This document shows, one piece after another, positions 60,226 through 63,200 of a DNA stretch of 64,000 bases (positions are counted from its first letter, which is position 1; each line of letters begins with the position of its first letter). The stretch is taken from positions 39,246,001 to 39,310,000 of the forward strand of contig NC_083282.1 in assembly GCF_963506605.1 (NCBI RefSeq), written 5' to 3'. This DNA is from Zootoca vivipara (Eukaryota). Position numbers: made by a program.

Positions 60226-63200
60226 TAGGGATGAAGCCTTTCAGACGCCTATCCTCTTGGCACTCTTTCCATGTCAGCTACTCAACGAGACTCACATGAG
60301 AGGCAGCTTGTTCTGGAGCTGGGTTAAAATGCTCACTTATAGTGGCAACTCACCACATCAGGCTAGCCTTGTCCCCTGCCAGTTTAGATCTGAACAGGAC
60401 TCCTGAGCTTTTGCTCAAAATCACACGCTTAGAGTGTATCTGCACCAGCACACTTTCTTAATGCTCGTTTTCATTTAATGTAAATTTGCCCCTCATTTCC
60501 CCAGTACTAATCTTTGTTGGTAGCAAGGGGAAATGATAGGTATAAAAGGAGAATTCCTGGATGCCAAGATCGAAGTTTGGGGCAAGTATTTTTTGGTGAG
60601 AGATTAATAATCACAAAACGTAGCAAAGTGTGTGGGGAAAAGCTGTTAGATGTTTAAAATACACCCTTGTGGGTTCCAAAATGGTCCCTCTTCCCTCGGC
60701 ATAGAAAAAGATCACACGTTTGGTGCATTAAAAACTGGTTCACTTACAAACACTTCAATTGGTTTACTTACAAACATGTCAGGTTCATGTGCTTTTCTAT
60801 ACATCATTCGGAAAACATAGGCAGTAAAACTTGACTTAATTACAGTGATGAAAGTTCCTAAATTAGAGACTTCCGGTTGATCGCAATGCCATCGCAGTCG
60901 GAGGTCCGTTCAGCGGAGCGGACCTCGGCGCTTTGAAGATAGGGGAAATCGCTCCAGCGAAGCGGATCCCCCCAAATAAAACCCAAGTCAAGCGTCTTGG
61001 GGTCAGGTCGTCTGGCGGGTGTCAAAAGCGGGCTCCCCCCGTAAGGCTCTGTTTTGAGCCCCCGAGAGCGGGGGGATCGGAGCTGCGACACGGCAGGCAT
61101 AAGATCGCTAATTTCAAAGCGTGACACTGCAGGACTGCAGGGCTACAGTGGTCAATTCTCCCAAATAACTGGATTAAAAGCGTGAGTTTCAATTGGATTT
61201 ATTTGAATTAATTTGGACAATTTGGCCAAGGGAAGAGACTTAAAAACGGGAGTCGGTCTCTCCATTTGAGTGCTCGATGATGCAGTAGATGTGAATGCCT
61301 AAAAATTGGCTTTAAAACACTTCCCTGAAGCAGAGTAAGGGGAAGAGTTAAATTGTATCTAGATCTCTGCAAAGGACTGTGTTTTGATAAGAGGAGACCC
61401 CTCTGAGAATTGGAGTCGGGTCAAAGGAAGGACCGGCTAGCCGCCATTATGTCATCACAATAGAAAGGAATGTGCTTGTTTATCAGAGACTGAGAGATTG
61501 AGGGACTGAGAACTAACGACAGTAGACTGTTTAATATTAATTTAATTTAATTTAAATTAATCTTAATTTAAGATTGAGTGTCAAGAGGAAGATCTAAGAA
61601 ACAGAATAGTTTCCGGCTCTGACGCACGTATTGAAATGGAGGACAATAACAGGATGGAGGAGAAGGTTTTGGATTCTGAAGAGGAAAACATACTTTGGGA
61701 CTTAATCCTGGAAAATATTTTTGAAATGAAAGAGGAGATGCTCAACCCCAAAAGAAAAGTAACAGCTCTGGAGGAGAAGATTGCTGAACCAACAGAACTG
61801 AACTTTGAATTAGAAGATTTAAATTGTGGAGAAAATAAGGAAGAAGAAGCAGTGGAAGAAGAAGTGGAAGAAGAAATCACTGTTCCACCGGTGGGAGGGG
61901 AGGAACAGGGAATGGATTTGACCCAAAAGTCCCAAATAAATGGGAAAACTAGAAAGGCTGCCACCCCAGTGAGAGAGGGGGGGGAGAAGAAGATGGGGGA
62001 CAGAAAGCAAATGAGATTGACGATAAGTTGGGAATACAGCAGGGGGGAAAGGGCTGAGCAAGGGCTGTATTGGGACAGAGCAGGAGTGGGGTGAAGGTGG
62101 AATATGGACTAAATCTATATAGAATGGATAAAGACGGTCTGAACCTGGAAAGTTTTAAGGAGCTAGCTGAAATCTCTGGAGACATCGACTCCAAGGAAAG
62201 GGGGAATAAATTAGTTGGGATTAAAAATAAAATAAAATAAAAGATATAGAAAAAGTTATATGGATATTTTTGGGCAAGAAATAATGGTTTTGAAGTAAAT
62301 GAGAAAGATGTTTTTCTTTAAGGATAGATGTTTAAGATTAAGGTTTAAATTATAAATTATGATGTAAAATTAAGAAATATGAATACTGCAAATTAAGCTA
62401 TTAAAATGAACTCAAGAGGGGGGATGCGGGAAAGTCTACAGTGTTAAGAATTATGATTGGATAATGGATTGAATTTTTTTCTCTTTTTATTTTTCCTTTT
62501 CTTGTTTATTCTTTTCTTCTGTATTTCGTTGTAAAATTAATAAAAATTATTATAAAAAAGTTCCTAAATTATTGGTACAGGAACACAAGAGTGGCTTGTT
62601 AGAGCCATGCAGTCTGTGTTTGGAGCAACCAGATCAGACCTCACACGTTGAGCTCCTCAGGCAGGCTGGGAGAGAACAATAGGTTTGATTACCTTCCTCC
62701 CAAGGTGAGGGGGTGTGACCTAGCTAAGCCTGGCATGACGGGTTACTCTGTGGGTTTAACACTTTTGGCATTAATTAGACTTAAGCATGTTGATATGAGG
62801 CGGATAAATTTTGTATGTATGTTAGAATAATTGTGGGTTTCTGGAGACTTCAAAAAAATAGTACTGCTTATGCACAATTACTTCTGTGCACTTGTGTCCT
62901 CATACACATCAATAACTTTGAAGCAGTATGCAGAAGAGATGGGTGTGAAGAGGTATACTTTAACACTGAAAAAGGCAATCTCAATATTAGGAAAAGGATA
63001 TGAAAATAAAACAGCAAGTAATGTGTATGCCTTCACATAAACTGCCCTATGGCGTGTCCCTGTTTAAAATTCTATGTTCAGTTCTCTCACCCCATCTCTA
63101 AAAGGGTATGGTAGAGGTGGAAAAGATACAAAATGGAGAAACTGAAATGATTAGGAGAGATGGAGCACCTTCCCTTATGGAGAAAAGCTTAAGAAGATGG

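What the first reader, a model, noticed from the sequence alone, without database searches (positions are those of the whole stretch)
60851..62571. Complete 1.69-kb TSD-flanked retroposon encoding only a small acidic protein, with no RT or endonuclease
Seen: a perfect 15-bp TSD, an L1-like GACTTCCGG 5' end, a CpG-rich ~250-bp 5' region, a long leader, a single intact 152-aa Glu-rich ORF ending WDRAGVG, an AT-rich 3' UTR, AATAAA and a short A tail. A 3' UTR stretch (GAACTCAAGAGGGGGGATGCGGGAAAGTCTAC, ~62408-62440) resembles the 3' UTR of the L1 fragment at ~59450-59490 read on the minus strand (GAACCCACAAAGGGGAGGAGGGAAGTCCAC). Known: such TSDs and A tails mark L1-mediated TPRT, and HAL1-type elements keep only ORF1. 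Inference: this is a non-autonomous L1 parasite with its own internal promoter. Its protein is much shorter than a canonical ORF1p and looks like a coiled coil plus acidic tail, with no obvious RRM/CTD. It might engage host-L1 ORF1p trimers. This is the best candidate here for an undescribed system.
Basis: partly seen in the sequence, partly recalled or inferred. Interest (0 to 1): 0.7.

Follow-up and report, generated by a model that had tools for sequence, protein, structure and literature searches.

The report
Gutted lizard L1 copy lacking ORF2
This is a 1.7-kb copy of a lizard-type L1 jumping gene that keeps both ends of the element but has lost about 4.4 kb of its coding interior, leaving a short acidic reading frame that matches no known protein; it is probably an ordinary defective L1 unless many copies turn up in the genome.

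Summary
A 1,691-bp insert (60866-62556, + strand) lies between perfect 15-bp target-site duplications. It starts with GACTTCCGGT and has a CpG-rich first ~300 bp, a 770-nt leader, one 152-aa Glu-rich ORF, an AT-rich tail with a T-rich tract, AATAAA and 3-6 A. It has no RT or endonuclease.

It is L1-derived, not a processed host mRNA. Its 5' end fits the published 5' consensus of Anolis clade-1 L1. Its outer layout mirrors family L1-AC15 (5'UTR 792 vs 770 nt, one 5' CpG island, 3'UTR 467 vs 462 nt). About 4.4 kb (most of ORF1, all of ORF2) is missing.

The ORF is longer than shuffles give (P about 0.001), but it is not an ORF1p. It has no RRM or CTD and no homologue in any search. Only one confident-ish helix is predicted, and the heptad pattern is broken by prolines.

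The claimed 3'UTR likeness to a neighbouring "L1 fragment" is no better than AT-rich chance matches.

Whether this is a one-off defective copy or a member of an amplifying HAL1-like family could not be tested, because no lizard genome, Repbase or Dfam was available. Verdict: new member of a known kind, with modest interest.

The parts
60851..60865 (.). 5' target-site duplication AAAGTTCCTAAATTA
   Evidence: Exact 15-mer present only here and at 62557 in the window.
60866..62556 (+). The whole insert, 1,691 bp: an L1-derived element without ORF2
   Evidence: Bounded by the TSDs. No second copy in the window by blastn or tblastx.
60868..60877 (+). L1 5'-terminal motif GACTTCCGGT (continues TG ... 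ATGCCA)
   Evidence: Single exact hit in the window. The published lizard clade-1 5' consensus is GACTTCCGGTGN8ATGGCG (PMC5381506, passage). The 12-mer GACTTCCGGTTG occurs once in that paper's supplement, in L1_AC15.
60866..61165 (+). CpG-rich 5' region (presumed internal promoter part of the 5'UTR)
   Evidence: 24 CpG, observed/expected 0.69-1.32 against 0.31 for the window, GC 0.56-0.61. L1-AC15 has one CpG island at 1-248. Promoter activity is inferred, not tested.
60897..60929 (+). GC-rich hairpin just after the 5' motif
   Evidence: Present in the centroid fold and as an inverted self-match. The energy of the 80-nt stretch is not better than shuffles (z -0.64). By eye, the listed Anolis clade-1 families carry a hairpin at the same place.
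60866..61635 (+). 770-nt leader (5'UTR)
   Evidence: Compare the 792-nt 5'UTR of L1-AC15. The 9-mer TTTATTTGA, at about element position 335, occurs once in the supplement, in L1_AC15.
61636..62094 (+). 152-aa Glu-rich ORF (stop codon included)
   Evidence: No Pfam family at E up to 10. No homologue. No PDB relative. Frame open at P 0.0022 for the N part and 0.008 for the C part in shuffles.
61831..62091 (+). Purine-rich (A+G 75%) G-tract region that forms the C-terminal 87 codons of the ORF
   Evidence: Composition. Two minus-strand frames are also open here. By eye it shares ordered motifs (a 14-mer, then two 9-mers) with the non-coding ORF1-ORF2 spacer of L1_AC17 printed. This was not computed.
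62095..62556 (+). 462-nt AT-rich 3' region (3'UTR)
   Evidence: GC 0.18-0.42 per 100 nt. Compare the 467-nt 3'UTR of L1-AC15.
62474..62531 (+). T-rich pyrimidine tract
   Evidence: Read. T makes up 53 of the last 91 nt. Lizard L1 3'UTRs are described as holding T-rich or C-rich repeated tracts (PMC5381506, passage).
62539..62544 (+). AATAAA polyadenylation signal
62554..62556 (+). A tail (3 A, or 6 if the first three bases of the TSD are counted)
62557..62571 (.). 3' target-site duplication

Best explanation
The insert is a defective copy of a lizard clade-1 L1, closest in layout to Anolis family L1-AC15. It keeps the full 5'UTR and the 3'UTR. It has lost about 4.4 kb: most of ORF1, any spacer, and all or nearly all of ORF2.

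Most likely the short form already existed as RNA, made from a deleted or aberrantly spliced L1 copy and driven by the CpG-rich 5'UTR. ORF2p from an autonomous L1 would then have copied it into this site in trans by target-primed reverse transcription, giving the 15-bp duplication and the short A tail.

I read the 152-aa frame as a leftover: the start of ORF1 run on into purine-rich sequence, not a working ORF1p.

Shown: the anatomy, the L1 5' end, and the absence of RT, EN, RRM and CTD. Inferred: promoter activity, mobilisation in trans, that the deletion came before insertion, and that the protein has no function.
For: - 5' end: GACTTCCGGT sits 2 nt inside the TSD, the only exact hit in 64 kb. 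It fits the published consensus for lizard clade-1 L1 (PMC5381506).
- Link to L1_AC15: GACTTCCGGTTG and TTTATTTGA each occur once in that paper's 65,014-character supplement, both in L1_AC15.
- Layout: L1-AC15 has a 5'UTR of 792 nt, a CpG island at 1-248 and a 3'UTR of 467 nt. The insert has 770 nt, a CpG-rich first ~300 nt and 462 nt.
- The sense strand is A-rich (A 0.37-0.39 in the ORF), as described for lizard L1.
- The 3' part has low GC, a T-rich tract, AATAAA and an A end, matching the paper's description.
- Perfect 15-bp TSD.
- No RT, EN or ORF1 domain in the ORF or in 9 further + frames. None of 55 long frames of the window has an RT, EN or L1 ORF1 domain.
- The perfect TSD and retained CpG point to a young insert, which leaves little time for several large deletions after insertion.
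Against: - Only the first 400 nt of each published family were visible. Beyond shared motifs the 5'UTR differs much from L1_AC15 by eye, so the parent family is not identified and no breakpoint is mapped.
- No L1 ORF1 or ORF2 sequence could be aligned to the insert.
- The ORF is open at about the 1% level in each half and at 0.1% overall. That is more than a pure leftover predicts, unless the fusion is in frame with real coding sequence or the frame is under selection.
- The A tail is very short (3-6 A).
- A deletion in the genome after insertion of a full-length L1 would give the same picture. Large deletions are said to be common in Anolis (PMC3787681, passage).
- The protein libraries returned nothing even for the neighbouring putative L1 ORF2 tail, so they may hold few lizard L1 proteins. 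The negative homology results are therefore weak.
Confidence: 0.5

Rival explanations
1. A full-length L1 of about 6 kb inserted here by itself (in cis) and later lost its interior through one or more genomic deletions. The short form was never transcribed or mobilised as such.
For: - Both ends and the TSD are exactly what a full-length insertion leaves.
- Tollis and Boissinot 2013 (PMC3787681, passages) argue that large deletions remove L1 DNA in Anolis.
- No second copy is in the window.
Against: - The insert looks young: perfect TSD, and CpG observed/expected up to 1.32 against 0.31 for the window.
- An ORF that stays open through the junction(s) has P about 0.01 if the join was random.
Confidence: 0.3
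2. One reading: a member of an amplifying, HAL1-like non-autonomous family. Its small acidic protein would be kept by selection and would act on L1 particles, for example by joining ORF1p coiled coils.
For: - The ORF is longer than shuffles give: 0.1% of 2000 on the + strand, and each half is open at P 0.002 and 0.008.
- Residues 21-59 have hydrophobic residues at heptad spacing (read).
- A cluster of L1 trimerisation-domain proteins appears at rank 11, score 0.76, for residues 1-65. By the tool's own scale this is a lead only.
- The layout may need more than one deletion, which fits a lineage that evolved over several rounds.
Against: - No RRM or CTD.
- No homologue: none of 107 candidates at E 0.01 or below, none of 78 at E 10 or below, and 0 of 1.84 billion representatives at E 0.001 or below.
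- Atlas recognition is 1237, well under 2300, the value that 91 in 100 proteins of known families reach and only 9 in 100 shuffled or reversed ones do.
- Prolines sit at two core heptad positions (P38, P52), and only helices 14-36 and 42-47 are predicted, at pLDDT 56.6.
- The C-terminal 87 codons lie in a purine-rich tract that by eye matches a non-coding spacer of L1_AC17.
- Copy number is unknown.
Confidence: 0.12
3. A processed pseudogene or retrocopy of a host mRNA or lncRNA with a CpG-island promoter, copied by L1.
For: - A CpG-rich 5' end with a CTTCCGG (ETS-like; recalled) motif, a long leader, AATAAA and a TSD would also fit a retrocopy.
- No protein homologue identifies the ORF as L1.
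Against: - The 5' terminus fits the L1 consensus at the very first bases.
- The UTR lengths and CpG island mirror L1-AC15.
- A T-rich 3' tract and an A-rich sense strand are L1 traits.
Confidence: 0.03

Closest known systems
Anolis carolinensis L1 clade 1, family L1-AC15 (Boissinot and Sookdeo 2016, PMC5381506)
   Same: - First 12 bases GACTTCCGGTTG.
- 5'UTR length 770 against 792 nt.
- A single CpG island at the 5' end.
- 3'UTR length 462 against 467 nt.
- A-rich sense strand, low-GC 3'UTR with a T-rich tract, and AATAAA.
   Different: - L1-AC15 is 6,151 bp, with ORF1 of 1,050 nt, a spacer of 110 nt and ORF2 of 3,732 nt. The insert has 459 nt of ORF in their place.
- Past shared motifs, the visible 400 nt differ widely by eye. 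The parent is probably a related family, or one from another species.
HAL1 (half-L1) of mammals
   Same: An L1 derivative without ORF2 that keeps L1 ends and depends on L1 proteins (definition from PMC5753468, passage).
   Different: - HAL1 encodes ORF1p. This ORF has no RRM or CTD and is less than half the length of lizard ORF1p.
- HAL1 is a multi-copy family. Copy number here is unknown.
- Bao and Jurka 2010 could not be read.
SpIREs: spliced integrated retrotransposed elements of human L1 (Larson et al. 2018, PMC5860796; abstract seen)
   Same: - L1 copies with TSD and a full 5' end that lack an internal stretch because a shortened RNA was retrotransposed.
- Some make non-functional ORF1p variants and need proteins in trans.
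- They are described as evolutionary dead ends.
   Different: - Known SpIREs lose parts of the 5'UTR or ORF1 and keep ORF2. Here about 4.4 kb including ORF2 is gone.
- Splice-site borders could not be checked without the parent sequence.

Membership tests
L1 (lizard clade 1) derived sequence | 5' terminus fitting GACTTCCGGTGN8ATGGCG | tested here: met
   The insert reads GACTTCCGGTT, then 8 nt, then ATGCCA, so 10 of the first 11 bases fit. It is the only exact GACTTCCGGT in the window, and it sits at the TSD. The consensus is from PMC5381506.
L1 (lizard clade 1) derived sequence | Long 5'UTR with CpG island(s) | tested here: met
   770 nt, with 24 CpG in the first 300 nt. The single island is as in L1-AC15.
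L1 (lizard clade 1) derived sequence | Low-GC 3'UTR with a repeated T- or C-rich tract, AATAAA and a poly-A tail; TSD | tested here: met
   The tail is only 3-6 A.
Autonomous L1 | ORF2 with endonuclease and reverse transcriptase | tested here: not met
   No frame longer than 175 aa. Pfam gave no RT or EN domain for the ORF or for 9 other + strand frames.
Autonomous L1 / HAL1 | ORF1p with coiled coil, RRM and CTD | tested here: not met
   152 aa against about 350 aa. No Pfam family at E up to 10. Only two short helices predicted. The ORF1 domain rule is from PMC5381506, section 10.
HAL1-like non-autonomous family | Many copies with independent TSDs sharing the same structure | not testable with these tools
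   One copy in the window. No lizard genome, Repbase or Dfam could be searched.
SpIRE-type spliced L1 | Deletion bounded by a splice donor and acceptor of the parent L1 | not testable with these tools
   The full parent consensus was not available; supplement sequences are cut at 400 nt.
Processed pseudogene | Collinear with a spliced host mRNA from its transcription start | tested here: inconclusive
   No host mRNA set could be searched. The L1 5' terminus and UTR layout argue against it.

The most novel reading that the evidence does not exclude
The insert is one of many copies of a lizard 'mini-L1' lineage that has shed ORF2 and the RNA-binding half of ORF1. It would keep the L1 promoter and 3' end, and would hold open a short acidic protein made of the ORF1 N-terminal helix plus a new tail. 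Such a protein could co-assemble with, or compete against, ORF1p of autonomous L1s. This would be a HAL1-like parasite outside mammals with a new kind of protein.
Probability: 0.1. Interest if true: 0.6.

Novelty: new member of a known kind. Interest (0 to 1): 0.25.

Why it matters
As it stands, this is one more defective L1 copy, and it is useful mainly for annotation. It lies about 640 bp downstream of the putative last or near-last exon found here of a CUB/ZP-domain gene, on the same strand, and carries a polyadenylation signal.

It would matter more if the source genome holds many copies with the same junctions and an intact ORF. Lizards carry many co-existing L1 families. An ORF2-less rider that keeps the L1 promoter and encodes a truncated ORF1-derived protein would then be a test case for how L1 parasites arise, and for what the ORF1 N-terminus does on its own.

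Tried and rejected
- **Second copy in the window.** blastn (word 7) and tblastx of the insert gave only short AT-rich or low-complexity matches.
- **Protein homology of the 152-aa ORF.**
  - Pfam at E up to 10: 0 families.
  - Word-seeded search at near lengths: none of 107 candidates scored.
  - Residues 1-65 against longer proteins at E up to 10: none of 78 candidates scored.
  - phmmer over 1.84 billion representatives: 0 hits at E 0.001 or below.
  - PDB: 2 rows at E 0.77 and 2.1, neither an L1 protein.
  - ESM Atlas, whole protein: best score 0.80, recognition 1237.
  - ESM Atlas, residues 1-65: best score 0.82; an L1 trimerisation-domain cluster appears only at rank 11, score 0.76.
- **Structure.** The single-sequence AlphaFold2 model has pLDDT 56.6 and pTM 0.21. 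That is too poor for a fold search, so none was run.
- **Homotrimer.** A prediction of residues 1-65 in three copies gave no verdict (score 0.28, mark 0.32, controls not run). It counts neither for nor against self-association.
- **Rfam on 58000-64000.** Nothing in the insert except a chance-level lncRNA row at 13.3 bits.
- **3'UTR likeness to 59401-59620 (-).**
  - The whole 3' tail ranks 13th and 14th of 1232 windows.
  - Without the T-rich tract it ties at the top with unrelated AT-rich windows.
  - The motif GGGAARTCYAC with one mismatch gives 7 hits against 4.05 expected.
  - I rejected this likeness as evidence.
- **Neighbouring 'L1 fragment'.** Pfam gave only a sub-threshold zinc-finger row, no L1 domain, and none of 5 candidates scored. 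Its L1 identity rests only on my recalled impression of L1 ORF2 tails.
- **5' hairpin.** It is present, but the 80-nt fold is no better than shuffles.
- **Processed pseudogene.** Rejected because of the L1 5' terminus and layout.
- **Other LINE clades (CR1, L2, RTE/Bov-B).** Set aside because, as I recall, they lack the combination of a long TSD, AATAAA and an A tail. This was not tested.
- **Not done.**
  - The published L1 sequences were compared by eye and by two short window motifs only. They were not put into alignment tools, because sequence from outside the session's stores is not to be typed.
  - Bao and Jurka 2010 is not held. Novick et al. 2009 was not read.
  - The bacterial and archaeal genome collection was not scanned, as irrelevant. 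The closed viral and metagenome collections were not used.
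Full report
**What is there**

The window has no N and 42.6% GC. The 15-mer AAAGTTCCTAAATTA occurs exactly twice, at 60851-60865 and 62557-62571. It brackets 1,691 bp (60866-62556).

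Exact 15-mer pairs 300-8000 bp apart are expected 0.62 times per window in block shuffles. The real window has 408 such pairs; the 60 I looked at lie in interspersed-repeat copies near 963, 2613 and 7598. The pair here flanks an L1 5' end and an A run, so I accept it as a target-site duplication. Its first three A cannot be told from the tail.

The insert begins GA, then GACTTCCGGT, the only exact hit of that 10-mer in 64 kb. The rest of the anatomy:
- The first 300 nt hold 24 CpG, observed/expected 1.32, 0.69 and 0.78 per 100 nt, against 0.31 for the window.
- The only long ATG-ORF is 61636-62094: 152 aa, 33 Glu, net charge -19.
- After the stop come 462 nt of low-GC sequence with a T-rich tract (62474-62531), AATAAA at 62539 and an A-run at 62554-62559.
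- Nothing in the insert resembles a reverse transcriptase, an endonuclease or an L1 ORF1 domain.

**It is L1-derived**

Boissinot and Sookdeo 2016 (PMC5381506; passages, section 10 and supplement seen) describe Anolis 'clade 1' L1:
- They start with a conserved GACTTCCGGTGN8ATGGCG.
- They have long CpG-island 5'UTRs and an A-rich sense strand.
- They have low-GC 3'UTRs with T- or C-rich repeated tracts, ending in AATAAA and poly-A.

The insert reads GACTTCCGGTT, then 8 nt, then ATGCCA, followed by a GC-rich hairpin (60897-60929). By eye, the listed clade-1 families carry a hairpin at that place.

Two window motifs were searched in the paper's 65,014-character supplement: the 12-mer GACTTCCGGTTG and the 9-mer TTTATTTGA (about position 335 of the insert). 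Each occurs once, and both are in L1_AC15.

The supplement table gives these figures for L1-AC15:

| Feature | L1-AC15 | This insert |
|---|---|---|
| Total length | 6,151 bp | 1,691 bp |
| 5'UTR | 792 nt | 770 nt |
| CpG island | one, at 1-248 | CpG-rich first ~300 nt |
| Coding block | ORF1 1,050 nt + spacer 110 nt + ORF2 3,732 nt | ORF of 459 nt |
| 3'UTR | 467 nt | 462 nt |

The outer layout therefore matches this family closely, while about 4.4 kb of interior is missing.

Only the first 400 nt of each family are visible (the file is cut). Beyond shared motifs the insert differs much from L1_AC15 by eye. The parent is therefore likely a related family, or one from another species. I did not put the published sequences into alignment tools, so these comparisons rest on my reading plus the motif search.

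**The ORF**

It is not a chance frame in the simple sense:
- 150-bp block shuffles of the insert reach 152 aa on the + strand in 0.1% of 2000 trials, and on either strand in 2.4%.
- The N part (61636-61830) and the C part (61831-62091) are open at P 0.0022 and 0.008. The other two + frames carry 6 and 5 stops in the N part, and 6 and 3 in the C part.

But it is not an ORF1p either. Every vertebrate ORF1 examined has a coiled coil, an RRM and a CTD, and lizard ORF1 is 1,026-1,086 nt in the clade-1 rows I saw. Against that, for this ORF:
- Pfam finds nothing at E up to 10.
- No homologue scored: none of 107 candidates, none of 78, and 0 of 1.84 billion representatives at E 0.001 or below.
- PDB gives two chance rows.
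- The Atlas recognition value of 1237 is well under 2300, the value that 91 in 100 proteins of known families reach and only 9 in 100 shuffled or reversed ones do.
- A single-sequence AlphaFold2 model (pLDDT 56.6) has only helices 14-36 and 42-47.
- Residues 21-59 show heptad-spaced hydrophobic residues, but prolines 38 and 52 sit at core positions (read).

The one hint of ORF1 ancestry is a cluster of L1 trimerisation-domain proteins at rank 11, score 0.76, for residues 1-65. By the tool's own scale this is a lead only.

The C-terminal 87 codons lie in a purine-rich tract (A+G 75%). By eye this tract shares, in the same order, a 14-mer and two 9-mers with the non-coding ORF1-ORF2 spacer of L1_AC17. 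If that holds, this half of the 'protein' is translated spacer.

The protein libraries also returned nothing for the neighbouring putative L1 ORF2 tail. They may hold few lizard L1 proteins, so the negative searches are weak evidence.

The quoted letters are present on both sides. Three results weaken the argument:
- The tail of the insert scores no better against 59301-59700 (-) than against unrelated AT-rich windows. It ranks 13-14 of 1232 with the T-tract included. Without it, it ties at the top with 56501-56701 and 49501-49601, whose alignments are plain AT-rich runs.
- The shared 11-mer motif with one mismatch is found 7 times against 4.05 expected.
- The neighbour itself could not be confirmed as L1.

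I drop this argument. The case for L1 rests on the 5' end, the layout and the general 3'UTR traits.

**How it most likely came about**

I see three routes.

(a) A shortened L1 RNA, from a deleted master copy or from aberrant splicing as in human SpIREs (Larson et al. 2018, PMC5860796, abstract seen), was transcribed from the L1 5'UTR. ORF2p of an autonomous L1 then inserted it in trans.

(b) A full-length L1 inserted and later lost its interior. Large deletions are said to be common in Anolis (PMC3787681, passages).

The perfect TSD and the well-kept CpG point to a young insert, which disfavours several later deletions. An ORF open through the junction is unexpected for a random join. It fits either an in-frame fusion, with chance 1 in 3 per join, or selection.

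My estimates are about 0.5 for (a), which includes an unknown share of small families, 0.3 for (b), 0.12 for (c) and 0.03 for a host retrocopy.

Promoter activity, trans-mobilisation and any protein function are inferred, not shown. The target site reads ...GATG|AAAG... on the top strand. This resembles the T-rich/A-rich L1 nick site only loosely (consensus recalled, not tested).

**Comparison with known kinds, and verdict**

| Known kind | What it shares | What fails or is unknown |
|---|---|---|
| HAL1 | Loss of ORF2 | HAL1 encodes ORF1p (PMC5753468); this ORF does not qualify, and family status is unknown |
| SpIREs | Full 5' end, TSD, internal loss, likely dead end | This insert loses far more, and splice borders are untested |
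| Autonomous L1 | L1 ends and insertion marks | No ORF2, no complete ORF1 |

I file it as a new member of a known kind: an ORF2-less, internally deleted L1 copy.

I found no paper describing ORF1-only or mini-L1 families in lizards. The searches were made, a look for HAL1 and non-autonomous terms in PMC5203782, and a look for deletion and non-autonomous terms in PMC3787681. These searches are narrow, and Repbase and Dfam were not available, so this is not a claim that none is in print.

The decisive test is copy number and shared junctions in the source genome, which I could not run.

Noticed in passing
window 44429-45064, 48316-48825, 52079-52522, 55017-55406, 59911-60225 (+): A host gene on the + strand. 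It has three CUB-domain exons (E 7e-32, 2e-31, 1e-28) and a weak ZP-N match just under the Pfam cut-off (21.6 against 24.7 bits, E 2.8e-4). An open frame at 59911-60225 ends, by my reading, in a hydrophobic, membrane-span-like stretch. The L1-derived insert lies about 640 bp downstream on the same strand and carries AATAAA.
   Followed up: partly
window 63748-63831: An 84-nt palindromic hairpin matches the mir-5408 model on both strands (43.2 and 42.4 bits, gathering score 90). As I recall, mir-5408 is an Anolis miRNA family. This is probably a hairpin-forming repeat, and a hint that the window is squamate.
   Followed up: no
window ~963-1010, ~2613-2641, ~7598-7628: Three copies of an interspersed repeat share exact runs of 30-45 bp starting GCAGGCATCCCCAAACTGCGG. 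They are probably a SINE family. Not identified.
   Followed up: no
Pfam gave only a sub-threshold zinc-finger row (ZNF512, E 0.044), no L1 domain, and none of 5 candidates scored in a homologue search, so its L1 identity is unconfirmed.
   Followed up: partly
window 25831-26202 (+): A borderline FAD_binding_6 match (E 3.4e-4, 21.3 bits against a cut-off of 21.1). It may be an exon of an oxidoreductase gene upstream of the CUB/ZP gene.
   Followed up: no
window 9131-9977, 15114-15832, 41143-41882: Stretches where several frames on both strands are open for 150-275 codons, with no Pfam match. They may be GC-rich or compositionally skewed DNA. Not examined.
   Followed up: no
window 61182-61187 (inside the insert) and the published L1 5'UTRs: The leader holds GTGAGT about 317 nt from the 5' end. 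By eye, the Anolis clade-1 5'UTRs printed, other than L1_AC9, carry a GTAAG or GTGAG at a similar distance (about 260-380 nt). A conserved splice-donor-like site in lizard L1 5'UTRs would bear on spliced L1 derivatives. Not tested.
   Followed up: no
window 61531-61575 (inside the insert): An AT-rich, partly palindromic run of TTAAT-like units in the leader, seen as an inverted self-match of 36-44 nt.
   Followed up: no
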